Part shown: positions 9,969-46,642 of the stretch, piece by piece
Numbering within the stretch: position 1 is the stretch's first letter
Layout: each line of letters begins with the position of its first letter
From: an uncultured bacterium
GTDB lineage: Bacteria; Patescibacteriota; Minisyncoccia; Phycocordibacterales; CAIZLB01
Direction: 5' to 3'
Assembly (NCBI GenBank): GCA_903848795.1
Contig: CAINHC010000021.1
Span: 11,309-75,308 of the forward strand
Length of the DNA: 64,000 nucleotides
Notes under the pieces: generated by a model
The model's input: the letters and a program-made list of their open reading frames with translations, nothing else
The model's database searches: none
Told to the model about the DNA's origin: nothing
Position numbers and translations under genes: made by a program

Positions 9969-10628
9969 ATGTGTTTTTCAGCTTCTGCCAGTTTTATTGC
10001 AAGCGGCGCCCTTGCCGCTCTTGGCGGGGTTTTTTTTGTTTCTGCAAAGAAGAAAGATAAAGTACTCGCGGTAATTCCGATAATGTTCAGTATTCAACAA
10101 TTTTGTGAAGGAATACAGTGGCTTTATCTAAACTCAGGATCTTCTTCATATATTGCCGGATATTTCTTTTTATTTTTTGCTTTTATCTTGTGGCCTTTAT
10201 ATGTGCCAATCATGGTTTTTCTTTTAGACAAAAGTGAAAGAAAGATATTGGGATGGTTTATACTTGCAGGAGTTGCGGTGGCGATTTATTTTTCTACGAT
10301 ATTTTTATTAGGCCCCTTAGATATACAAAGGGTTAATTCATGCGTAAGTTATAACTTTAGTTTTCCCTTCCAAAACTTTGTTGTTTTAGCATACCTTCTA
10401 GCTATTGTCGGATCCCTATGTATTTCAAGTCTTAATATCTTTCGCTATTTTGGAATAGTCGTTGGATTCTTAGGGCTTGTCTCATGGTTTTTCTTTGCGC
10501 TCACATTCACGTCGGTTTGGTGTTTTTTCGCAGCCATTGTCAGCCTAATGTTTTTCTTTTACGTAAAATACAAACATAAGGTTAATATACTATTGGAGAA
10601 AGTAGATAAGAAAGTTTTGCAAAAATAG
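9969..10628 (+). CDS. Polytopic membrane protein, unknown function
   Basis: Roughly six hydrophobic helices; no recognisable motif. Confidence 0.3.
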   Translation: MCFSASASFIASGALAALGGVFFVSAKKKDKVLAVIPIMFSIQQFCEGIQWLYLNSGSSSYIAGYFFLFFAFILWPLYVPIMVFLLDKSERKILGWFILAGVAVAIYFSTIFLLGPLDIQRVNSCVSYNFSFPFQNFVVLAYLLAIVGSLCISSLNIFRYFGIVVGFLGLVSWFFFALTFTSVWCFFAAIVSLMFFFYVKYKHKVNILLEKVDKKVLQK

Positions 10629-18022: not shown

Positions 18023-19318
18023 TCAGAACCGTTTTGATGCTAGGTAAGAAAAAATAGCTGCAAGCAGACAAACAGCCCCGCCAAGTATAATAGGCATTCG
18101 TGCACCCATAGCGTCCGCAAGCCATCCAGAAAGTGGTCCGCCAACAGCACCCGATCCAGTTAAAAAGATTCCTTGAAGCGCCATCAATCGCCCGTGCATT
18201 TCTTGTTTTGATTCGACTTGAATCATTGTAGTTGTTGCTGTCATGTATAAAATACTAGACGCTCCCACAAGAAAAATAATTGGTATAGCTACTAAGACAC
18301 TAGGAGAAAGTGCGAGCATCAGCATGCTAATACCAAGCATTGTAGCACCAAAGATAATATGATTCATTTTAACTAATCCCCTACGAGCTACAACAAGGGC
18401 ACTTATGACAGCTCCGACACTAAAAACTGAATAAAGAAGTGTAAAGTTACCGATCGTACCATGAAGGCCCCTGGTTACAAACAATGGAAAAGTAGTGGTA
18501 AAATTGTATGCAATCGTTCCAATAAAAGCGAGCATGCCAAAGTTTATCGCCAATAATGGCATAGAAAAAATATATTTTATACCTTCACCTACTCTACCTT
18601 TTGTTTTAGTAATCTCTGACTTTCGATACAGTTCCGAAGGTCGCATCATCATAAGACAAATTAAAACTGCAATATAGGAAATAGCGTCAAAGGTAAAACA
18701 CCAACCAAAGCCCACCGTAATAATTAGAAGCCCCGCAATCGCTGGGCCTAATATTCGTGACAAATTAACATTTGTACTATAAAGCACCACTGCATTTGGA
18801 ATATCATGTTTAGGGACCATTTCGCTTAAGAAAGATAGGCGAAGTGGATTATCCAATGAAAGCACTATTCCTCCAACAAATGCTAATGCATATAATCCAA
18901 AGAGTGGCGGATGTGGCATAAAAGCCAAAACAGCAAGACCTACAGATTGTACCATCTCCAAACTCTGTGTCCAAATAAGCAGACGTCGCTTATCAAATTT
19001 ATCAGCAATAGATCCTGCCCACAATGAAAGAAATAGTATCGGGCCATACTGTAGAGCAGAAACTATTCCAACAGAAAGACCGCTTTCAGTAATTTTCAAA
19101 ACTAGCAAAGTAAGGGCGATTTTTGTTAGCCAATTACCAGTATTTGAAATAGTTTGTCCTATTGTGAATAACCTATAGTTGCGATTCCTGAGCGATATAA
19201 AAGTCTTCAAAAATGTTTCTTTGTATTTAGGTGGTGCAAATAGTTTTTGGTTCATATAAAAAAATGTCAAAAAAACAAGCCTCGAGATCTCCAAGTTATT
19301 CTGGATTATTCCCTTCAA
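18023..19318 (-). CDS. MFS-family transporter
   Basis: 12 predicted TM helices in MFS-typical 6+6 layout, with a characteristic loop (DKFDKRRLL). Confidence 0.6.
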   Translation of the reverse strand: MKGIIQNNLEISRLVFLTFFYMNQKLFAPPKYKETFLKTFISLRNRNYRLFTIGQTISNTGNWLTKIALTLLVLKITESGLSVGIVSALQYGPILFLSLWAGSIADKFDKRRLLIWTQSLEMVQSVGLAVLAFMPHPPLFGLYALAFVGGIVLSLDNPLRLSFLSEMVPKHDIPNAVVLYSTNVNLSRILGPAIAGLLIITVGFGWCFTFDAISYIAVLICLMMMRPSELYRKSEITKTKGRVGEGIKYIFSMPLLAINFGMLAFIGTIAYNFTTTFPLFVTRGLHGTIGNFTLLYSVFSVGAVISALVVARRGLVKMNHIIFGATMLGISMLMLALSPSVLVAIPIIFLVGASSILYMTATTTMIQVESKQEMHGRLMALQGIFLTGSGAVGGPLSGWLADAMGARMPIILGGAVCLLAAIFSYLASKRF

Positions 19319-20315
19319 TTATTTTCTTTACTTCACGGTCAAAATCAGAAATGTAATTTTTGTCCTGTTCTATGCGGTATTTTTCATATTCACCAAGCGC
19401 CAAGGATTCTGCAACCTCATGACTAATCTTACCAGCATTAGTCAATATTTCATACTCACTGAAATTAAGAAAGGCGTTGAGTTTTTCTATCCAATCCGAC
19501 ATTGTCATTGCTTTACCTCGAGATGCTTGCATTTCGGCGTAGTCTAAATACATATTACCAATACGATTTAGATGATCTAACTCATTTTTATTCAAATAAT
19601 TTTTTGCTATAGTCACGTCGCTTGGCATTATTTTACCCTGCGGATATTTACGCCACGAAGTCAAACCTAGTTTTTCCTTTTTACGGCTCACTCTTTCCGC
19701 AACAATTTCTGCCGCCGTTCTACCGGTAATAGCAAAGTGTAGTTTATTTTGCACTGTTGCAAAAAATTCCTTACTTTCAAACGACTTTGGAGAATAGTCA
19801 ATCGCTGTTGCGTATATGTCTGTAATTTTTTGATATATTCTACGTTCACTCGTACGAATATCTTGTATTTCTTCATAAAGCTCATCAAAATACCGTGCGC
19901 TAAAACGAGAGCCATATTTCATACGGTCACTATCCAATGCATAACCTTTTTGGATATAACTTTTCAAAACACCAGTTGCCCATCTTCTAAATTCTGAACC
20001 TCTTTCAGAATTAACCCTATAGCCAACAGCGATGACAAGCTCGAGGCTATAACAGACGACCTTACGAACAACCTCCCTTTTCCCCTCTTTTTGAACTACC
20101 GAGAATTCCTCGGTAGTTGCATTTTTATCAAGCTCGTTCTCATTATGTATGTTCTTAATATGAAGAGACACATTGTCTGTTGAACAATCAAATAATTCTG
20201 ATATTTTTCGTAAGGTTAGCCACATATTATTCACGTCATACAAGACCTCAATATTTACCCTACCATCTTGAGATTGATAAAACGCTATTTCATTGTCTTT
20301 TATCTTTTTTATCAT
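19296..20315 (-). CDS. RhuM-family protein, paralogue 3
   Basis: YSLELVIAVGYRVNSERGSEFRRWATGVLKSYI...TSERRIYQKITDIY. Confidence 0.7.
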   Translation of the reverse strand: MIKKIKDNEIAFYQSQDGRVNIEVLYDVNNMWLTLRKISELFDCSTDNVSLHIKNIHNENELDKNATTEEFSVVQKEGKREVVRKVVCYSLELVIAVGYRVNSERGSEFRRWATGVLKSYIQKGYALDSDRMKYGSRFSARYFDELYEEIQDIRTSERRIYQKITDIYATAIDYSPKSFESKEFFATVQNKLHFAITGRTAAEIVAERVSRKKEKLGLTSWRKYPQGKIMPSDVTIAKNYLNKNELDHLNRIGNMYLDYAEMQASRGKAMTMSDWIEKLNAFLNFSEYEILTNAGKISHEVAESLALGEYEKYRIEQDKNYISDFDREVKKIIEGNNPE

Positions 20316-20425
20316 ATTTATCCTAGTATATCATACTGATAAAAATTGTAATTTTACCCATTATTTATCTTAAAAATATAATGAGGTTGAACCTGTATCT
20401 TTCGTGTTTGAGTTGGCTGGCCCTA

Positions 20426-20463
20426 CCACACAAAATTAGAACCTTTTTGATGCTAGGTAAGAG
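20426..20463 (-). repeat. Remnant duplicate of the MFS gene 3' end (last 8 codons, stop, 3' flank)
   Basis: Minus-strand reading of 20426-20463 encodes ...SYLASKRF* followed by the ccacac flank, matching 18013-18048 at the true MFS 3' end. Confidence 0.6.
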
Positions 20464-20508
20464 TAATTTCTTTCACTTTAGTCCTGAATTTACCAGATGA
20501 TTAAATAT

Positions 20509-20967
20509 TTAAAGTCTAATTATAATATAAAACCACAACATAACCATAACAATAGACAAAATCATTGATATTATAACTTGAATTTTCTGCCACTTAGTTA
20601 GGTTTACGATAGTAAGAGTTTTTTTTGATTTACTTAATAAAATCACACAGGAAATAGCTACAATAATTATTATTGGTACAAAAATTATTAAAGCAATTGC
20701 AGAGCCAACATATACCGATGTAACTGTTAGTATCGTATAAAGGATATTTAAAATTGAAAGGACACAAACAAATATAATCTCTATATCTATTATCTTTCTT
20801 AAATTTTTATTTGCATTCTCATCTACTACAACAGGAACCTTTTGATTTGAATCTCCTTTATATATAAGTTTTTTAATTCCGAGATATAAAATGAATAAAA
20901 TTGGAAGTAAAATTATTAAAAACACAAGGCTGAAGTCTGGGCTTAAATCAGATAAAAAACTAATCAT
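20509..20967 (-). CDS. Small polytopic membrane protein, unknown function
   Basis: Four hydrophobic helices; no motif. Confidence 0.3.
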   Translation of the reverse strand: MISFLSDLSPDFSLVFLIILLPILFILYLGIKKLIYKGDSNQKVPVVVDENANKNLRKIIDIEIIFVCVLSILNILYTILTVTSVYVGSAIALIIFVPIIIIVAISCVILLSKSKKTLTIVNLTKWQKIQVIISMILSIVMVMLWFYIIIRL

Positions 20968-21109
20968 GCGTTAATAATAACATCATCAATAATCAAAGCA
21001 AGCAACATTCTATTGAATAAACTGACCTTATCACAAACCACCATGCAAGAAGTTCTGACGTTCAAGACGCTTATTATAAAAAGGCTTGAAACAAAGGCGG
21101 AAATACCGG

Positions 21110-21181
21110 CTGGGAGACTAGGAATCGAACCTAGATTAAAAGCTTCAAAGGCTTCTGTCCTACCGTTAGACGATCTCCCAA
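21110..21181 (-). tRNA. tRNA-Gln (anticodon UUG)
   Basis: The reverse complement gives a 7-bp acceptor stem GGGAGAT/GTCTCCC, T-loop GGTTCGATTCC, and anticodon loop CTTTGAA (U-UUG-A). No encoded CCA. Confidence 0.8.
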
Positions 21182-24598: not shown

Positions 24599-25387
24599 TC
24601 AAAACAACATTGGATTTTTCAAGTGCCCCCCATTGATGACATCAATGATTCTGTTATGGTATACGAAAGCACGGGCTCCAGAATTACGCATTTCTTCAAC
24701 CCATAAATCTCTCAAGCCGATTATATTCTTGATTTCATGCGTAGTAACCGCCACGGGATATATCAAACTCCGAGTAGAACTCGTAGCCTTCATGTCTCCC
24801 GAAGTGTCACCAAAATAGTAGAACGGGATTCTGCTTTCCGAATGATGAAGGTAATGCCTTCTTGCCAGTTCAGCAAGAATGGCTGATTTATCCTCCACCA
24901 CAATTACATCCACATCAAGCCCAGCCTCACGTCTGACTATATCAGCAACAGGATGAATAGAATTGAGTGTGACAACAATAACATGAAATTTATCAGCAAT
25001 TTTTCGAAGCTGTTCTGCAACGCCTGGAAACAAGTTACAGGGATTACGTTTCTCAATCTTGACAATCAAACTAGTGAATATGTCCCAAGCATCATCCAGT
25101 GGTACATAACTTGGAACTCCCCATTTATAAAGATCGGGATGGACCCCCATCTTAAATTTTTCAGCACAAGGAACACATTTGAGGTCGTCACTATACATCA
25201 TGACAATCTCAACCGCAGCTTGATGGTAGGTTCTCCAGCCTTCAAAGAGAGTGCCGTCAAAATCAAAAGCTACCAACGGCTTTGGACTATTTAATACCCC
25301 ATCGGGAATTCTTATCATTTGACACTCATCTAATCCCAATGGAAGAGTTACAAACTCCTGGTCTATAAATTTTATTCCGCTTTTCAT
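24599..25387 (-). CDS. HAD-superfamily hydrolase
   Basis: Motif I FDFDGTL and motif IV FGDTSGD. Confidence 0.5.
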   Translation of the reverse strand: MKSGIKFIDQEFVTLPLGLDECQMIRIPDGVLNSPKPLVAFDFDGTLFEGWRTYHQAAVEIVMMYSDDLKCVPCAEKFKMGVHPDLYKWGVPSYVPLDDAWDIFTSLIVKIEKRNPCNLFPGVAEQLRKIADKFHVIVVTLNSIHPVADIVRREAGLDVDVIVVEDKSAILAELARRHYLHHSESRIPFYYFGDTSGDMKATSSTRSLIYPVAVTTHEIKNIIGLRDLWVEEMRNSGARAFVYHNRIIDVINGGHLKNPMLF

Positions 25388-27093: not shown

Positions 27094-28740
27094 ATGGACA
27101 CGCAAACTCAATCACAAAACATAAATCAAGATCCAGATTTTGGTACAACAGAAACTGACGGTGCCGTTATCGCAGATAGACATCACTTAAGAAAGCCGGT
27201 TGTATTAATAGTACTTGATGGTTGGGGCCATAGAGAGGATACAAAGGATAACGCACTTGCAACCGCCAATACTCCGAAGTTCCGTGAGTTTTGGAACAAT
27301 TACCCACATACACTCCTTGACGCCAGCGGACTTGCTGTTGGACTTCCAGAAGGACAAATGGGGAATAGTGAAATTGGTCATACAACAATTGGAGCGGGTC
27401 GCGCAATGGACACTGACTTAGTGAGAATCAAAAAGTCTATAGTTTCAGGCGAATACGATACCCTACCACCATTTGTAGAATTATTTAATCATGTCAAAGA
27501 GCATGATAGTACTCTGCATGTTATGGGACTCTTGAGTGACGGTGGTATTCACTCACATCAAGATCATCTTTTTGCATTTATCAGAGCCGCAAAAAATGCA
27601 GGAGTTAAAAAGCTTGCAGTCCATGTCTTTACTGATGGACGCGATACTCCTCCGCAAAGCGCAGCAAAGTATGTAGGAGAATTGGAGACAGTCCTTAAAG
27701 AAACTGGGCTTGGTCACATTGCAACAATTTGTGGTAGATACTATGCAATGGATAGAGACAATAACGCAGACAGAACTGACAAAGCAGAAGATGCGATCTT
27801 CAGTGGAATTGGTCATGATTGTGAAATTGAACCAACAGAGTATCTAGAGGCACTTTACAAAGAAGGAAAGATTGATGAGTTACTAGAGCCAATCGTATGC
27901 AAAAATGTTATTGATGGAGTTAAAGTATTTGGCACACCAACAAAAGAAGATGACGCTATTTTCTTCTTTAACTTCAGAGCAGATCGCGCTCGACAATTAA
28001 CAAGAGACATTCTTGCAAAAGCAAAGGCGATGGATTGGAAGTTTGCTGGAATGACATCATACGGTGATGAATTCCACTATCCTGTCGTCTTCCCTTCTCT
28101 TGTAATTGAAACAACTCTTGCAAAAGAAATTTCAGAAGGAGGATTTACTCAAGCTCACATTGCAGAAACTGAGAAATTCCCTCACGCAACATATTTCCTA
28201 AACGGCGGAGTTGAAAAGCCATATCCAGGTGAATCACATATTCTTTTGGCAAGCCATAAGGATGTTGCAACACACGACCTAGCTCCAAAGATGCGTGCTG
28301 AAGGAATTGCTGATAAAGCAATTGAACAAATTGAAGCTGGAACTGACTTTATCTTCATCAACTTCGCAAACGCGGACATGGTGGGTCACACAGCAAATGT
28401 TCCTGCGATAATCGAATCAGTTGAGGAAGCTGATAAGCAATTAGGTAGAGTTGTCGATTCTGTTGACGCACACGGCGGAGTTGCTTTCATTACAGCGGAC
28501 CATGGAAATGCTGAATTGAATATCGATCAAACAACTGGCAACAAACACACATCACACACAACAAATCTTGTACCGATGATTGTGACAGACAAGGCAATTA
28601 AATTGCGAGCAAAAGGAAACTCAACTAATCCAGACACACTTGGAGTTCCAACTCTTGCTGACATCGCTCCAACAATCTTCGATGAAATGCAAATCAAGAA
28701 ACCAGATTTCATGACAGGAGAGAGTTTGATTGTGAAGTAG
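27094..28740 (+). CDS. gpmI: 2,3-bisphosphoglycerate-independent phosphoglycerate mutase
   Basis: VVLIVLDGWGHRED, NSEIGHTTIGAGR and TADHGN motifs. Confidence 0.9.
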   Translation: MDTQTQSQNINQDPDFGTTETDGAVIADRHHLRKPVVLIVLDGWGHREDTKDNALATANTPKFREFWNNYPHTLLDASGLAVGLPEGQMGNSEIGHTTIGAGRAMDTDLVRIKKSIVSGEYDTLPPFVELFNHVKEHDSTLHVMGLLSDGGIHSHQDHLFAFIRAAKNAGVKKLAVHVFTDGRDTPPQSAAKYVGELETVLKETGLGHIATICGRYYAMDRDNNADRTDKAEDAIFSGIGHDCEIEPTEYLEALYKEGKIDELLEPIVCKNVIDGVKVFGTPTKEDDAIFFFNFRADRARQLTRDILAKAKAMDWKFAGMTSYGDEFHYPVVFPSLVIETTLAKEISEGGFTQAHIAETEKFPHATYFLNGGVEKPYPGESHILLASHKDVATHDLAPKMRAEGIADKAIEQIEAGTDFIFINFANADMVGHTANVPAIIESVEEADKQLGRVVDSVDAHGGVAFITADHGNAELNIDQTTGNKHTSHTTNLVPMIVTDKAIKLRAKGNSTNPDTLGVPTLADIAPTIFDEMQIKKPDFMTGESLIVK

Positions 28741-28812
28741 ATTTCCAATCACGCGCCACTTCAGTGCATTCCAACGTCGCTCGGGCGCTGCTCGGGCTGA
28801 AAAAAAGTAATT

Positions 28813-28840
28813 AACCGCATTAGAGATGATGCGGTTTTTA
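28813..28840 (+). terminator. Rho-independent terminator of gpmI
   Basis: accgcat-loop-atgcggt followed by ttttt. Confidence 0.6.
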
Positions 28841-28846
28841 CTTGCA

Positions 28847-28871
28847 ACAAAAAACCGGCTTGTCAGGCCGG
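28847..28871 (-). terminator. Rho-independent terminator of the minus-strand GC-rich gene
   Basis: ccggc-ttgtcag-gccgg, preceded on the plus strand by an A6 run (a U-tract on the minus strand). Confidence 0.55.
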
Positions 28872-28902
28872 GCACTTAAACAGTGCAGTTTTTGAGGAAA
28901 AG

Positions 28903-29529
28903 TCACTCATGTGCGATATTCCCTTCGTCGGCTGTCCGAGTCAACAGGATGCGACAATCGTCATAATGCAGGCTGGCGTGTTCTGGGGGGAGTTCAAAGA
29001 AACGCAGTATCAATTGACCATCTTGAATCTCGGTCGTCAAAATTACAACCGCCGCCTCATTGAACTCATCCTCCGGAAAAACGCGGACTAGTGCGCGGGT
29101 AGGAAGTAACCCCCAACCGTATTCCCTGTCGTTTGCTAAATAACAGATAGCTGTGGTGGCTTCCAAGTCTCCAGCCAAACCATAATAATCACTCACATTA
29201 TATCTGCTGGTCCAGTTTAGGCATTCAATCATTCGGTCAATTTTGTCGGCAAAGGGCAACCGAGACGTATCCTCCACTGATGGCGTGCGGTTATCAACTC
29301 TGACGAAACACATAGATACCATATGTGAAAATACTGGGAATCCGTGTACTGGCCATAATAGCCGGTCAAACATCCTGATATCGCCAACAATGGTAACGTC
29401 ACCCCGCTCAGCCAGACGCGCTAGTAGACTGGAAGGATCTGCGCCTTCAAAGACGTTGAGAAGGAAGTCTGGTATTACACCAATCCCTTCCTTATCACCT
29501 GCTTGAAAAACATCTTTCGTAAGTATCAT
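28903..29529 (-). CDS. Hypothetical protein in a compositionally atypical (~48% GC) segment; probable horizontally acquired gene
   Basis: 208-aa ORF with its own terminator; GC clearly above the flanks; no recognisable motif. Confidence 0.4.
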   Translation of the reverse strand: MILTKDVFQAGDKEGIGVIPDFLLNVFEGADPSSLLARLAERGDVTIVGDIRMFDRLLWPVHGFPVFSHMVSMCFVRVDNRTPSVEDTSRLPFADKIDRMIECLNWTSRYNVSDYYGLAGDLEATTAICYLANDREYGWGLLPTRALVRVFPEDEFNEAAVVILTTEIQDGQLILRFFELPPEHASLHYDDCRILLTRTADEGNIAHE

Positions 29530-29759
29530 TTAGTTCTCCGTTCCAATACGTTGTTTTCCAAAACAATTTTACCTCTTAGAGCGAGGGGTAGAACTGGTTT
29601 GAACTTTGTTCTTAGACGCCATCTAATGCTCCGCGTCTGTTTTCGATAATAGAGTAGCACAGATGGGTGGATGGGGCAAAAATCGGTTATAAAATAAACA
29701 CACCTACGTTGATGTGCTTATTTATATGTAGCAGAAATTTATTTCGTAGCTATCAAAAT

Positions 29760-30872
29760 CTAAAATGTCCTGAAATAACAAGATGACCCTTGTACACTTC
29801 TAATAAAATCATCCTTTTGATCTCGAGACATTGTTGGGTTTTTAAGGACCTGCTCTATCACTGAAGCCTGACTTTCATTACCAGTTAACTTACTTCCCAA
29901 GACCGAACTCAACAAATCGAGGAGGGTTTGACTACATGTCTTGGTAATTAGTCCGAATACAGCCTCAACTTCCTTATTGGAATTCATGGTTAACGTACAC
30001 ACTCCAGTACCTGAACATGTACTTTCCTTTACTAACGGACTCCATCTTATAAAAACAGATTTATCATTAGGTATTGCTGTTAAGGTAACCTTACTATTTT
30101 CCTTATACTTTTCAAAACAATCATTTTCACAGTTTATCCCTTGGCCAACAATTTTTCCTCCAGGCTCTCCGTTAAAATTAGTCACGACCACGCTAGTTTT
30201 TAAGGAATATCTATTCTCTCTTGGAGAAAATCTAGCGAAAACCTTTTTGTCCTTATTCATTATGACAGAAATAGTGGATCCTTGTTCTGTAGAATCTCCA
30301 CTCCAACCATCAAAAATTGAATTTGCATCTGGTGTTGCCTTTAGACTCACAACTGTATTTGGATTATACAAGTTTGAACACGCATTGCCGCAATTAATAA
30401 TATTATCAGAGGACACAACAACACCCTTTCCATGAATTACCACTATCTTTCCGCTAGCGTCTAACTTGCCAGTTATAACTGATGACGGAGAAACCAATAA
30501 ACTATATTTACTACTATTATAATTCGAATTATTAATGCCAGAGTTACTACTTAAATTAGTACCACTATTACTGCTTAAGTTCGAACCGCTGTTACTACTA
30601 ATGTTACTACCGCTAGTATTAGGTTGACTATTAGAAGTAGACGGAGAATTCACAGATGAACTAGGCACAACAGCATTCCCAACCGCCGCCACTAAATTAC
30701 CCGCCCCGCTTCCAACATATCCAAGTGTGTTTTTAATATTTGAGTATTGTGAGAAAATTAGCGCCAATGCCAACACCGCAACAAATGCTGTTGGGTATTT
30801 TGAATTAAATTGTTTTGATTTCATGTTAATTTTAATATATAAGAAGTAAGATACCACTTTAGTATATAACAC
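29760..30872 (-). CDS. Secreted protein with Ser/Asn-rich linker and two divergent InlB B-repeat-like domains
   Basis: Signal peptide from the internal Met (MKSKQFNSKYPTAFVAVLALALIF); repeats IINCGNACSNLYNPNTVVSLKATPDANSIFDGWSG and GINCENDCFEKYKENSKVTLTAIPNDKSVFIRWSP (C..C..Y..G..V.L.A.P......F..WS pattern). Confidence 0.5.
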   Translation of the reverse strand: MLYTKVVSYFLYIKINMKSKQFNSKYPTAFVAVLALALIFSQYSNIKNTLGYVGSGAGNLVAAVGNAVVPSSSVNSPSTSNSQPNTSGSNISSNSGSNLSSNSGTNLSSNSGINNSNYNSSKYSLLVSPSSVITGKLDASGKIVVIHGKGVVVSSDNIINCGNACSNLYNPNTVVSLKATPDANSIFDGWSGDSTEQGSTISVIMNKDKKVFARFSPRENRYSLKTSVVVTNFNGEPGGKIVGQGINCENDCFEKYKENSKVTLTAIPNDKSVFIRWSPLVKESTCSGTGVCTLTMNSNKEVEAVFGLITKTCSQTLLDLLSSVLGSKLTGNESQASVIEQVLKNPTMSRDQKDDFIRSVQGSSCYFRTF

Positions 30873-31429: not shown

Positions 31430-31903
31430 TTATACACCATTATCTATGGAATCAAAAAATAAAAGGTCTGATTGATATCTTTTGTTATGATTAAATTTAG
31501 CGACGTCGTCATTGTTTAAAATTATATTCATTGAGCAATCTTCCGGGAGACTTGGACAAACCCTACTTGACGAAGAAATTAGAGTTGAATATAGTGTTTC
31601 CACTTTTTGATTACTCATTCTAGTTCGCCCATATAGATTAGAAAAATAAATTTTATAAACATCTTGGTTTTGAATTTCAGCGACCCTCGCCTGAGTAGAT
31701 AGTTGAGCACTCATCCAAATCATTGATTCTATGGCAGTGACAGCAAAAATTATAAAGATGGAGCAATAAATGACGACCTCTATTAGTGTGAAGCCTTTGT
31801 TTTGGCGGGCGTTTTGGCAGGCACGAGCAACTGAAATGACCCGGTTAGGCTGACTAACCCCCTGGGCGGTCCCGATCGAATTGATTTTATTTTTTATAAT
31901 CAT
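31430..31903 (-). CDS. Type IV pilin / pseudopilin with class III (prepilin peptidase) signal and an unusually long ~37-aa leader
   Basis: ...ARQNKG|FTLIEVVIYCSIFIIFAVTAIESM carries the G/FTLIE cleavage-methylation motif plus a hydrophobic helix. Confidence 0.65.
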   Translation of the reverse strand: MIIKNKINSIGTAQGVSQPNRVISVARACQNARQNKGFTLIEVVIYCSIFIIFAVTAIESMIWMSAQLSTQARVAEIQNQDVYKIYFSNLYGRTRMSNQKVETLYSTLISSSSRVCPSLPEDCSMNIILNNDDVAKFNHNKRYQSDLLFFDSIDNGV

Positions 31904-44911: not shown

Positions 44912-45205
44912 CTACCTGCTTGTATACTTATGAGGTTTCATCCTCGCGCAGGCACATCCCAGTATCACGCAGGTCAGGAATATCGTATCCACGATCGACT
45001 GCGCAAATTTTGGCAACTCTGTGAGTATTGCCATTGCCATGTAGATGCAGATCGTTAGAGAAAGGCGCCAGAATACCTGGAATTTTCTCATGGCCTCGTA
45101 ATAATAGAGTTTCTGCAACGCCGTGCAGACAAGTCTCCATGTTAAATACATCCCTAGCCCATAGATGGCTAGAAATATGGCTATCTTTAAATAAGTCATC
45201 GTCAT
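44912..45205 (-). CDS. Small two-TM membrane protein (hypothetical)
   Basis: Plausible ORF only from the internal MTMTYLKIAIFLAIYGL...; the longer listed version lacks support. Confidence 0.25.
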   Translation of the reverse strand: MTMTYLKIAIFLAIYGLGMYLTWRLVCTALQKLYYYEAMRKFQVFWRLSLTICIYMAMAILTELPKFAQSIVDTIFLTCVILGCACARMKPHKYTSR

Positions 45206-45387
45206 TTTATTATTGTTAAGGTTTGACCTGATCCTCGTAATTAACTCTTTCAACACCCGTTGGAAGCTAATTGTATATGTATAAAAGGACCATTTCAAAC
45301 CACACAATACCTTACAATCCAATATTTGTAAAGTTTTTAAAAGCATGGTAGGCTTGTAGATGAAATAGGATCTTTCCAATTTGATCC

Positions 45388-45912
45388 GTGACCTCAACAA
45401 CAACCCCAATCCCTAGAAAACAACTGCACATGAACAAAAAAGATGGTGGAATTCTAACATTGATTATCCATAACGACAGGACGTACTCTGACCCAATGAT
45501 TACAAGATTACGCCGAGAACCGAGTCTCTTCGTCAAGATCTTCACAGACGTGACGAGCGCCATGCATTACATGAAAAGAAAAGGTGTTAAAGTGGACATC
45601 CTTATTCTCGATGGACGAATCTCCTGTGGAAAAGACTTTCCTAAAGAGGGCACCCAAAACGAAATGATTACTGGGATGGTGTTGTATGACCAGATCCGTC
45701 GGCAAAATCGTGAATTTCGAATCATTCTTTTCACGACAATGTTTGAAGTTTGTAATAACTTCGCATGGTCAGACCCAAATCTGACAATGCTCATGGCACA
45801 AGCGTCCACCTTGGAATACCAAGTCATTAAGTCACTCGAACGCATTTTTCCAGGCGATTTCGAGAAGAAGGTCATCGTGTCAAGAAAGTCCAAAAAAGTA
45901 TCAACCACCTGA
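45388..45912 (+). CDS. Degenerate receiver-like (CheY-fold) protein, paralogue A
   Basis: ILTLIIHNDR...VDILILDGRI resembles receiver beta1 and beta3 with the phospho-Asp position, but the acidic pocket is not conserved. Followed by a GC-rich terminator ending ggggcttctttgttttt. Confidence 0.35.
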   Translation: MTSTTTPIPRKQLHMNKKDGGILTLIIHNDRTYSDPMITRLRREPSLFVKIFTDVTSAMHYMKRKGVKVDILILDGRISCGKDFPKEGTQNEMITGMVLYDQIRRQNREFRIILFTTMFEVCNNFAWSDPNLTMLMAQASTLEYQVIKSLERIFPGDFEKKVIVSRKSKKVSTT

Positions 45913-45920
45913 CTAACCCC

Positions 45921-45990
45921 AGCCCCGACATCCAAACCAAAGGAGCCCCGCTTCCCCCCGTTTGGATCGGGGCTTCTTTGTTTTTATTTT
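45921..45990 (+). terminator. Rho-independent terminator (agccccgacatccaaac...gtttggatcggggct, then T-run)
   Basis: Long imperfect stem plus tctttgtttttatttttt. Confidence 0.55.
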
Positions 45991-46027
45991 TTAATATTAA
46001 TATTTCACCTCTTGTCGACCAAACGAT

Positions 46028-46069
46028 GTAGACTCACCTATGCGGACCCACCTACGTAGACTCACCTAT
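46028..46069 (+). promoter_or_regulatory. Direct repeat 2x gtagactcacctat (28-nt period) upstream of receiver-like paralogue B
   Basis: Exact 14-nt copies at 46028-46041 and 46056-46069. Confidence 0.4.
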
Positions 46070-46087
46070 TGTAGAGGTTTCTAAATC

Positions 46088-46642
46088 ATGATACCCTTTT
46101 ATTGGACTAGAAAAAAAGTAAGTCCGGAAGAGACAAGCAACAACCCTACACCCAGAGAGACAGATATTATGGAAAAAACATCAACGAAAACAATCGCCAA
46201 AGTGTTGTTCGCCGCACCAGATGGACAATATTCACCAAAAAACATCGCCCGCCTGAGAAAGGAAGGCAATGATATCACCATCTGCCACAACGCGAAGGCG
46301 GTACTGACTTACTTTAACTCAGAAGAAGGGAAACCTCATCTCGCACTGATCAACGACGTTTTACCTCATGGCGACGAGTTCAATGACATGGTGACCTTAA
46401 GAGAAAGCGCCACGGGGAGGGCGCTGTATGTCCGCCTCAATAGAACGCACGAGTGCAGAAACGTCATATTCGCGGTTACCACCGAAAACGTGGACGAAGT
46501 CGGTGAAATAGTTAAACTGAAGGAACCCAATCTCTTAATCCTGCATATAAAACCAGGAGAGCTCGATTATGCACTCAACACTGTCATCAAACAACTGCTT
46601 CCCGCCGAAGTTGAGCCTGGCAAGGAAGAAACCAGCATGTGA
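46088..46642 (+). CDS. Degenerate receiver-like protein, paralogue B
   Basis: KVLFAAPDGQ...HLALINDVLP resembles a receiver fold and is distantly similar to paralogue A. Followed by a terminator sharing ggggcttctttgttt. Confidence 0.35.
   Translation: MIPFYWTRKKVSPEETSNNPTPRETDIMEKTSTKTIAKVLFAAPDGQYSPKNIARLRKEGNDITICHNAKAVLTYFNSEEGKPHLALINDVLPHGDEFNDMVTLRESATGRALYVRLNRTHECRNVIFAVTTENVDEVGEIVKLKEPNLLILHIKPGELDYALNTVIKQLLPAEVEPGKEETSM

What the first reader, a model, noticed from the sequence alone, without database searches (positions are those of the whole stretch)
28741..29760. ~1-kb GC-rich (~48% GC) insert carrying an orphan 208-aa gene with matched bidirectional terminators
Composition shifts sharply immediately after gpmI. 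The region encodes one minus-strand ORF with no recognisable family (MILTKDVFQAGDKEGIGVIPDFLLNVFEG...). Convergent intrinsic terminators for gpmI and for this gene sit in the 160-nt gap at 28813-28840 (plus strand) and 28847-28871 (minus strand). This fits a horizontally acquired gene inserted between glycolytic genes and the pilus cluster. It could be an immunity, effector or metabolic gene taken from a host or neighbour.
Basis: seen in the sequence. Interest (0 to 1): 0.55.

Follow-up and report, generated by a model that had tools for sequence, protein, structure and literature searches.

The report
Swappable orphan gene beside pilus cluster
A ~0.9-kb self-contained gene module of unknown function, somewhat GC-richer than its genome, sits between a glycolysis gene and a pilus gene cluster in one small clade of uncultured freshwater Patescibacteria; it is missing from the same spot in six close relatives, and its protein differs far more between relatives than its neighbours do.

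Summary
ORF208 (28903-29529, minus) has 47.7% GC against 37.7% for the window, the highest of 46 long ORFs, and both terminators are real.

Compared with relatives, about 28841-29759 is a discrete indel. Six syntenic relatives (gpmI 83-93% identical) go from the gpmI terminator straight into the pilus cluster. Five species-level lineages in one 100%-supported gpmI clade carry the module. It consists of a promoter-like site, a ~115-nt conserved leader, an RBS, the CDS and its own terminator.

GC-richness and lysine depletion persist in all five alleles. No donor, mobility gene or phage link was found.

Function is unknown. The best guess, at low confidence, is a conflict or specificity protein linked to the adjacent slot of variable surface proteins. 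This looks like a lineage-specific accessory islet of moderate interest.

The parts
28813..28836 (+). gpmI intrinsic terminator hairpin (AACCGCAT...ATGCGGTT plus a T run). It is not part of the insert; it marks the insert's left boundary.
   Evidence: Terminator scan. Conserved in all occupied loci, with one compensatory pair in L089. The same hairpin is present in the empty-site relative L100.
28841..29759 (-). The full accessory module: a ~0.9-kb segment present here but absent from the same site in six syntenic relatives. Boundaries are approximate, within about 10-40 nt.
   Evidence: In L100, sequence runs from the shared gpmI hairpin into the Flg_new_2 gene 3' end within about 20-50 nt, and L100 2060-2143 aligns to window 29807-29890. 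There is no ORF208 homologue in L097-L101 by tblastn or profile hmmsearch.
28845..28871 (-). ORF208's own intrinsic terminator (CCGGCCTGACAAGCCGG plus TTTTTTG).
   Evidence: Terminator scan. Nearly invariant in all five alleles. Absent from empty sites.
28903..29529 (-). ORF208 coding sequence: a 208-aa soluble, acidic (pI 4.6), Lys-poor and Arg-rich protein from a five-allele orphan family.
29536..29539 (-). Shine-Dalgarno sequence GGAG, 6 nt upstream of the ATG.
   Evidence: Read from the sequence. A purine-rich RBS is kept in all alleles.
29540..29644 (-). Conserved 5' leader. It has two predicted hairpins (helix 1: 29614-29619 with 29633-29638; helix 2: 29557-29576 with 29584-29603). It also has a 17-codon uORF with an invariant GGAG, but the uORF frame is not conserved.
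   Evidence: 75-87% nt identity where the CDS is about 50-70%. Alignments A3 and A7. 92% of cells paired, 3 compensatory pairs, and 8-9 of 500 shuffles reach the observed values. Folding energy is unremarkable, z=-0.2. No Rfam hit. Found only upstream of ORF208 alleles: in 16 of 16 occupied loci and none of 84 others.
29651..29679 (-). Promoter-like site: -35 TTGCCC (29674-29679), a 17-nt spacer ending in TGC (extended -10), and -10 TACTCT (29651-29656).
   Evidence: Read from the sequence and conserved in alignment A3. The consensus scan did not call it, so this is inferred.
29688..29718 (-). Terminator-like hairpin plus U run for the upstream Flg_new_2 gene. It makes ORF208 a separate transcription unit.
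   Evidence: The hairpin arms change in a compensatory way between the window, L001 and L093 in alignment A3. The scan did not call it, so this is inferred.
29760..30872 (-). Context, not part of the module: a variable surface protein with two Flg_new_2 (InlB B-repeat) domains, the last gene of the type-IV-pilus-like cluster.
   Evidence: Pfam hit at 1.6e-19. 73% identical in L001, 31% in L093, replaced by an unrelated 422-aa protein in L089, and by 1036-1210-aa PG_binding/Flg_new_2 proteins in L097 and the P0013 locus.
27094..28740 (+). Context: gpmI, the conserved anchor gene convergent with the module.
   Evidence: Pfam domains in the gene tables. 92-97% aa identity among module-bearing genomes.

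Best explanation
About 28841-29759 is a self-contained accessory gene module. It runs from a sigma-70-like promoter through a ~115-nt conserved leader that probably forms stem-loops, an SD sequence and a 208-codon CDS to its own intrinsic terminator. It lies between the gpmI terminator and the distal, variable end of a type-IV-pilus-like gene cluster in one clade of uncultured freshwater Patescibacteria (CPR).

Shown: the module is absent from the same site in six syntenic relatives. It encodes a real protein under purifying selection that belongs to a five-allele orphan family. The protein has diverged far more than its flanks. The CDS phylogeny is incompatible with that of gpmI and of the module's own leader.

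Inferred: the module entered this slot in the ancestor of the clade, or was passed among its members. Since then the coding part has been replaced between lineages by homologous recombination through the conserved flanks, so that deep allele classes persist. That pattern is expected under diversifying or frequency-dependent selection.

Inferred with low confidence: the product is a cytoplasmic specificity or conflict protein of the immunity, anti-defence or effector type. Its link would be to the neighbouring slot of hypervariable host-contact surface proteins. It is probably not a metabolic enzyme.
For: Composition: (GC z=2.8; +4 points from amino-acid composition, +6 points from codon choice, z=2.4).

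Orphan status: 2 clusters among 5.8 billion proteins and 5 family members among 1.84 billion representatives.

Same slot in all five alleles.

Empty sites in L100 (gpmI 93%), L097 (89%), the P0013 locus (87%), L098 (87%), L101 (87%) and L099 (83%), with synteny kept. Homologues excluded there by tblastn and hmmsearch. The gpmI hairpin is shared across the boundary.

All carriers fall in one 100%-supported gpmI clade.

Divergence: ORF 31-62% aa identity against gpmI 92-97% and eno 98-99%. In the nucleotide identity profile the flanks are 75-90% and the CDS about 50%. The ORF does not evolve clock-like: win-L001 and L093-L089 have gpmI dS of 0.52 and 0.60 but ORF identity of 62% and 33%.

Incongruence: the gpmI 3' end groups {L093,L089} in 100% of bootstraps and the leader does so in 81%. 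The ORF groups {L089,L090} in 100%, backed by shared indels.

Independent transcription unit. The leader occurs only with ORF208.
Against: Only five alleles are known, and they come from short metagenomic contigs.

The trees are neighbour-joining trees built from 390 nt, 175 nt and about 210 aa.

The position of the in-clade empty-site genome (P0010) has only 58% support, so one gain plus one loss cannot be separated from later gain or transfer.

Rate heterogeneity could inflate the apparent incongruence.

No donor, mobility gene, tRNA site or terminal repeat was found.

No toxin domain lies upstream, and a terminator plus promoter separate ORF208 from the surface-protein gene.

For the one close pair (win-L001) the ORF's dS is ordinary (1.16 against 0.9-1.14 for neighbouring non-housekeeping genes). 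That pair fits plain vertical, fast evolution.

There are no expression data.
Confidence: 0.6

Rival explanations
1. A vertically inherited, fast-evolving orphan. On this view the module was gained once at or before the base of the clade, or arose there. It then simply drifted quickly under relaxed purifying selection and was deleted in the P0010 lineage. No allele exchange is involved.
For: The slot is identical in all carriers. The leader tree follows the gpmI tree. For win-L001 the ORF's dS (1.16) is like that of neighbouring genes and omega is 0.21. Neighbouring pilus and surface genes are also fast-evolving, with omega 0.14-0.17.
Against: The ORF split {L089,L090} has 100% bootstrap support and shared indels, and it is incompatible with the gpmI split {L093,L089}, also at 100%. 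Pairs at equal gpmI distance differ twofold in ORF identity, 62% against 33%. GC3 remains elevated although synonymous sites are saturated.
Confidence: 0.25
2. An immunity gene, cognate or orphan, of a polymorphic toxin system whose toxin is carried by the adjacent variable surface protein.
For: The protein is small, acidic, cytosolic and hypervariable, and it sits next to a hypervariable secreted or anchored protein. It shows presence/absence polymorphism and atypical GC.
Against: The upstream protein has only Flg_new_2 domains, and its C-terminal end is the conserved part (70% identity over the last 17 aa in L090), not a variable toxin tip. A terminator, a promoter and about 230 nt separate the two genes. 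The same ORF family follows unrelated upstream proteins: Flg_new_2 proteins in most loci and a 422-aa protein in L089. Relatives have Flg_new_2 genes without ORF208 (L100, L097). No Imm or SUKH Pfam hit.
Confidence: 0.1
3. A pilus accessory or modification factor specific to particular pilin or adhesin alleles, analogous to the P. aeruginosa tfpO/W/X/Y/Z cassettes downstream of pilA.
For: It is located at the variable distal end of a T2SSE/T2SSF/pilin-like cluster. It shows allele classes and presence/absence polymorphism.
Against: It is not adjacent to the pilin-like gene (p157, 31430-31903); two genes lie between them. It is a separate transcription unit. It has no TM segment. Syntenic relatives have the same pilus core genes without it.
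Confidence: 0.1
4. A de novo or unrecognisably diverged gene born within this clade. On this view the GC-richness reflects the stop-poor sequence from which a long ORF could arise.
For: No homologue exists anywhere outside one narrow clade in about 15 billion proteins. No fold match was found. The structure prediction has low confidence.
Against: No similar non-coding or out-of-frame sequence exists in the empty-site relatives. The alleles are already as diverged as 31% identity yet keep 28 invariant positions and a consistent alpha/beta secondary-structure pattern. The module arrives complete with promoter, leader and terminator.
Confidence: 0.1
5. Not a gene: a spurious ORF in a GC-rich spacer, or a structured RNA locus.
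For: It is an orphan with a poor AF2 model.
Confidence: 0.02

Closest known systems
Flexible genomic islets carrying lineage-specific ORFans at a fixed chromosomal slot between conserved genes, with allelic replacement by homologous recombination
   Same: A discrete presence/absence segment between conserved anchors. Atypical composition. Deep allele classes. A gene tree that is incongruent with the flanks. No mobility genes needed.
   Different: Here the module's own promoter/leader is more conserved than its CDS and follows the species tree, so the exchange appears confined to the coding part. The GC anomaly is maintained in all alleles. The host is a reduced-genome Patescibacterium.
Pseudomonas aeruginosa pilA-linked accessory gene cassettes (tfpO/tfpW/tfpX/tfpY/tfpZ); recalled from the literature, not tested here
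   Same: Variable, group-specific accessory genes at the end of a type IV pilus locus, exchanged horizontally with presence/absence between strains.
   Different: ORF208 is not next to the pilin-like gene, has its own promoter and terminator, and has no TM segment. No sequence relationship could be tested.
Immunity proteins of polymorphic toxin systems (CDI CdiI, Rhs/Imm, SUKH families)
   Same: Small, acidic, cytosolic, hypervariable, with atypical GC, often present as orphan cassettes.
   Different: No toxin domain upstream, no co-transcription, and no match to any Imm or SUKH model.
RelE/ParE-fold toxins
   Different: All those hits have Z no higher than 4.1, cover about 60-70 residues and rest on a low-confidence model. 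The protein is 208 aa and acidic rather than about 90 aa and basic. There is no antitoxin neighbour and no Pfam hit.

Membership tests
Horizontally acquired / accessory genomic islet | Composition atypical for the host genome | tested here: met
   GC 47.7% against 37.7%, in the top 0.6% of windows. Highest of 46 ORFs. Codon-choice excess z=2.4. K 1.4% against 8.3%.
Horizontally acquired / accessory genomic islet | Absent from the same site in syntenic relatives (empty site) | tested here: met
   Six empty sites with eno-gpmI and the pilus-cluster synteny kept. L100 shares the gpmI hairpin at the boundary.
Horizontally acquired / accessory genomic islet | Gene phylogeny incongruent with flanking genes | tested here: met
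   ORF split {L089,L090} at 100% against gpmI {L093,L089} at 100% and the leader at 81%. NJ trees on five taxa only.
Horizontally acquired / accessory genomic islet | Identifiable donor or homologues in other lineages or mobile elements | tested here: not met
   No homologue outside the clade. None in IMG/VR or GenBank phages. Hits in giant eukaryotic proteins are spurious.
Horizontally acquired / accessory genomic islet | Mobility signatures (integrase or transposase, tRNA target, terminal repeats) | tested here: not met
   Only short, chance-level repeats. The nearest tRNA is 7.7 kb away. The neighbours are housekeeping and pilus genes.
Polymorphic-toxin immunity protein | Lies immediately downstream of, and is co-transcribed with, a gene ending in a variable toxin domain | tested here: not met
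   The upstream protein has only Flg_new_2 repeats and a conserved C-terminal end. A terminator-like hairpin, a promoter-like site and about 230 nt intervene.
Polymorphic-toxin immunity protein | Match to a known immunity family (Imm*, SUKH, CdiI etc.) | tested here: not met
   No Pfam or NCBIfam hit for any of the five members, even at E up to 10.
Polymorphic-toxin immunity protein | Neutralises a cognate toxin | not testable with these tools
   Needs co-expression or binding assays.
Type IV pilin accessory cassette (tfpO/W/X/Y/Z type) | Directly downstream of the major pilin gene and linked to its allele | tested here: not met
   The pilin-like gene with the N_methyl motif is at 31430-31903. 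Two genes and a terminator separate it from ORF208.
Type IV pilin accessory cassette (tfpO/W/X/Y/Z type) | Sequence homology to Tfp accessory proteins | not tested
   No reference sequences were available in the tools. Absence of any Pfam or NCBIfam hit argues against it.
RelE/ParE-fold toxin | Significant fold or sequence match | tested here: inconclusive
RelE/ParE-fold toxin | Small basic protein with an adjacent antitoxin gene | tested here: not met
   208 aa, pI 4.6, monocistronic.
Diversity-generating retroelement target | A localised variable region with a template repeat (and reverse transcriptase) nearby | tested here: not met
   No repeat of the CDS elsewhere in the window, and divergence is spread over the whole protein. 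A single sequence variant occurs on all 17 contigs read for this species. RT genes were not specifically searched for.
Known anti-phage defence system | Match to a PADLOC model | tested here: not met
   No PADLOC family for any of the five members.
Cis-regulatory leader RNA (riboswitch-like) | Conserved structure supported by covariation, or an Rfam match | tested here: inconclusive
   92% of cells paired, 3 compensatory pairs, 8-9 of 500 shuffles reach the observed values, n=5. Folding z=-0.2. No Rfam hit.

The most novel reading that the evidence does not exclude
The ORF208 family may be a previously unrecognised class of specificity determinant in Patescibacterial conflict, either epibiont against host or against phage. 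It would be expressed from a conserved structured leader. Its coding sequence alone would be swapped between species as a cassette through the conserved leader and terminator, perhaps by natural transformation through the adjacent competence-type pilus. Recombination or an external allele pool would keep it GC-rich.
Probability: 0.2. Interest if true: 0.65.

Novelty: new member of a known kind. Interest (0 to 1): 0.4.

Why it matters
Patescibacteria have tiny genomes and depend on other cells. The few loci that vary between close relatives are therefore the best candidates for genes that set host range or resist attack.

This locus gives a cleanly bounded example. A 0.9-kb module is present or absent at one site, next to a slot of hypervariable surface proteins at the end of a pilus cluster. 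Its coding sequence has a different history from its own promoter/leader. If the protein proves to be a specificity or immunity factor, it would be a new family and a handle on epibiont-host or epibiont-phage interactions. If not, it remains a typical lineage-specific accessory ORFan.

The conserved leader and the persistently GC-rich codon usage in an AT-rich genome are small unexplained puzzles.

Tried and rejected
(1) Sequence homology. Pfam, NCBIfam, PADLOC, PHROGs and PDB were searched with the single sequence and with the 5-member profile, and nothing usable came back.

(2) Weak HMMER hits in 1054-3720-aa proteins. These are eukaryotic cadherin and H-lectin proteins and are spurious.

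(4) Phage origin. No hit in IMG/VR by leader DNA pattern or by protein profile, and none in GenBank phages.

(5) Metagenome scan anchored on the gpmI terminator. It returned only one contig, already known.

(6) GTDB genome scan with gpmI. The nearest representative is only 64% identical, and the distant CPR loci have no pilus cluster or ORF208 near gpmI, so they say nothing about the site.

(7) Non-coding RNA or rRNA as the cause of high GC. The only Rfam hit in the window is a tRNA at 21.1 kb.

(8) Leader as a strongly structured RNA. The folding energy is not better than that of shuffles, and covariation is only suggestive.

(9) Leader uORF (17 codons, invariant GGAG). Its frame is broken in L001 and the ATG is lost in L089, so the conservation is at the nucleotide level.

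(10) Mobile-element or integron-like cassette. There are no terminal repeats and no integrase.

(11) DGR-type hypermutation. There is no template repeat, divergence is spread evenly, and there are no near-variants.

(12) Within-species polymorphism. All seven contigs with DNA that carry this allele are at least 99.99% identical to the window, so they give no information.
Full report
OBSERVATION

The region is as described. GC is 45.5% for 28741-29760, 47.6% for 28741-29540 and 47.7% for the ORF at 28903-29529 (minus strand, 208 aa). The whole window is 37.7%. Only 1.2% of 1020-nt windows and 0.6% of 627-nt windows are as GC-rich. Among 46 long ORFs of the window, ORF208 has the highest GC (z=2.8), raised at codon position 1 (z=2.0) and position 3 (z=1.9). 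The step at the gpmI side is modest, since gpmI is 41.6%. It is sharper at the pilus side. The two convergent terminator-like hairpins are found at 28813-28836 (plus) and 28871-28855 (minus).

ANATOMY

Read in the sense of ORF208 (minus strand), the module has these parts:
- A hairpin plus U run that ends the upstream Flg_new_2 gene (about 29718-29688). Its arms change in a compensatory way among relatives.
- A promoter-like site: TTGCCC, a 17-nt spacer ending in TGC, then TACTCT (29679-29651).
- A leader of about 115 nt.
- GGAG, 6 nt before the ATG.
- The CDS.
- The hairpin CCGGCCTGACAAGCCGG followed by a T run.

ORF208 is therefore its own transcription unit, not the last cistron of the pilus operon. 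This rests on sequence and conservation, and there are no expression data.

The leader has two predicted helices. 92% of cells pair, there are 3 compensatory pairs, and 8-9 of 500 shuffles reach the observed values. Its folding energy is ordinary (z=-0.2), and no Rfam family matches. A 17-codon uORF with an invariant SD lies in the leader, but its frame is not conserved. The leader motifs occur once in each of the 16 ORF208-bearing loci and in none of the 84 other loci fetched.

THE PROTEIN

The protein is soluble, with no 19-residue window above KD 1.31. It is acidic (pI 4.6), and Lys-poor and Arg-rich in all alleles (K 3, R 15 here).

It is an orphan. The word-indexed search of 5.8 billion proteins found only itself and a 62% relative. 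The exhaustive HMMER search of 1.84 billion representatives added three more proteins of about 210 aa (E from 5e-49 to 6e-20). It also returned three spurious hits in eukaryotic cadherin and lectin giants. No member matches Pfam, NCBIfam, PADLOC or PDB, and PHROG hits are at chance level.

COMPARATIVE GENOMICS

All five alleles lie in the same slot, after the last gene of a T2SSE/T2SSF/pilin-like cluster and convergent with gpmI. The loci are the window, L001, L091-095, L089 and L090.

Using gpmI as a neutral anchor, I found a graded series of relatives and inspected the slot in each. Six of them keep eno-gpmI convergent with the same pilus core genes but have no ORF208:
- L100 / P0010 (gpmI 93%)
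- L097 (89%)
- the P0013 locus (87%)
- L098 (87%)
- L101 (87%)
- L099 (83%)

For the five with DNA, tblastn and a family-profile hmmsearch find nothing. The P0013 locus is known only from its gene table.

L100 keeps the same gpmI hairpin (AACCGCAT...ATGCGGTT) and about 20-50 nt later runs into the 3' end of its Flg_new_2 gene, which aligns to window 29807-29890. Relative to that site the window has an extra segment of about 0.9 kb, roughly 28841-29759.

In a gpmI tree, all carriers plus P0010 form a clade with 100% support, and every relative examined outside it is empty. Absence is therefore ancestral and the module is a gain. P0010 is either basal or lost the module secondarily, since its placement has only 58% support. 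More distant CPR genomes (gpmI 64% or less) have neither the pilus cluster nor ORF208 near gpmI and are uninformative.

EVOLUTIONARY PATTERN

Among carriers, gpmI is 92-97% and eno 98-99% identical in protein, but ORF208 is only 31-62% identical.

In nucleotide identity profiles, gpmI is 80-93%, the terminator spacer 81-90% and the leader 62-87% (75-87% in the two closest relatives). The CDS between them drops to about 50% in L089 and L090 and to 55-60% in L093.

Divergence is not clock-like. win-L001 and L093-L089 have gpmI dS of 0.52 and 0.60 but ORF identities of 62% and 33%.

Bootstrapped NJ trees group {L093,L089} for the gpmI 3' end (100%) and for the leader (81%). They group {L089,L090} for the ORF (100%), which is also supported by shared indels. 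The coding part therefore has a different history from both of its flanks. The simplest reading is exchange of deep allele classes by homologous recombination in the conserved flanks.

Against over-reading this: for the closest pair the ORF's dS (1.16) is like that of neighbouring non-housekeeping genes (0.9-1.14), so that pair fits vertical, merely fast evolution. The adjacent surface and pilin-like genes are also fast-evolving (omega 0.14-0.17). Hypermutation of the DGR type is excluded by the even spread of changes, the lack of a template repeat and the lack of near-variants.

COMPOSITION

Of the roughly 10-point GC excess, about 4 points follow from amino-acid composition and about 6 from codon choice (z=2.4).

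All five alleles are 45-48% GC against 35-40% in their flanks, and all exceed the GC expected from their amino acids. Synonymous sites between allele classes are saturated (pS 0.6-0.8), so this is not a fading signature of one old transfer. Something maintains it. Candidates are an outside allele pool, GC-biased repair at a recombination hot spot, or selection on the mRNA. I could not discriminate among them.

No donor, phage or viral relative, mobility gene, tRNA target or terminal repeat was found.

FUNCTION

Nothing gives a direct assignment. The context is suggestive. The slot between the pilus core genes and gpmI is a hot spot for variable, anchored surface proteins:
- a Flg_new_2 protein of 254-370 aa here and in L001, L093 and L100;
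- an unrelated 422-aa protein in L089;
- three tandem paralogues in L091;
- PG_binding/Flg_new_2/Beta_helix proteins of 1036-1210 aa in L097 and the P0013 locus;
- none in L098, L099 and L101.

ORF208 is a cytoplasmic, hypervariable, presence/absence gene with deep allele classes at the edge of that slot. Such a gene most resembles a conflict or specificity protein of the immunity, anti-defence or effector type. I hold this at low confidence.

The specific idea of an immunity gene paired with the upstream protein is weakened on four counts. A terminator and promoter lie between the two genes. The upstream protein has no toxin domain and has a conserved C-terminus. ORF208 follows unrelated upstream genes in different loci. 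Relatives carry Flg_new_2 genes without ORF208. A metabolic role has no support.

VERDICT

Three corrections apply: it is a clade-level accessory module rather than a recent one-off insertion, no donor is identifiable, and the composition signal is maintained rather than residual. In kind it is a lineage-specific flexible islet carrying an ORFan. The conserved leader paired with a swapped CDS, and the persistent GC bias, make it moderately interesting.

Noticed in passing
window 44912-46642: Three adjacent ORFs (165, 174 and 184 aa) have GC3 of 0.49-0.55 and a codon-choice GC excess of z=2.4-3.0, as atypical as ORF208. One has a sub-threshold Aca2/YdiL-like HTH hit (E=1.4e-3). This may be another foreign or accessory islet. 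It is not an RNA gene.
   Followed up: partly
window 19296-21180: A 152-aa ORF with very low GC (24.8%, z=-3.7; 20509-20967) lies between a RhuM-family gene (19296-20315) and tRNA-Gln (21108-21180). That layout is typical of an integration hot spot.
   Followed up: no
window 24599-25387; L001 14017-15931: The HAD-like gene on the other side of eno is even more diverged between close relatives than ORF208: 31-34% identity to two GC-rich (46-48%) genes in L001, while eno is 98% identical. The conserved eno-gpmI pair is therefore flanked by variable slots on both sides.
   Followed up: partly
L091 182-3104; L097 8747-12379; window 29760-30872: The surface-protein slot at the distal end of the pilus cluster expands and contracts. 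L091 has three tandem genes that share a ~165-nt conserved 5' region (70-77% identity). L097 and the P0013 locus have 1036-1210-aa PG_binding_1/Flg_new_2/Beta_helix proteins. L098, L099 and L101 have none.
   Followed up: partly
window 29581-29634 (minus): A 17-codon uORF (MASKNKVQTSSTPRSKR) in the ORF208 leader is preceded by an invariant GGAG. The start is kept in 4 of 5 alleles, but the frame is shifted in L001 and the ATG is ACG in L089.
   Followed up: partly
window 28741-28812: The spacer between the gpmI stop and its terminator is locally very GC-rich, contains a short direct repeat (GCTCGGGC twice) and is an indel-rich segment among relatives.
   Followed up: no
window 10343-10382: A 40-nt stretch 82.5% identical to the RBS and start region of ORF208 (29518-29555), E=0.004. 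This is probably chance or a shared translation-initiation context.
   Followed up: no
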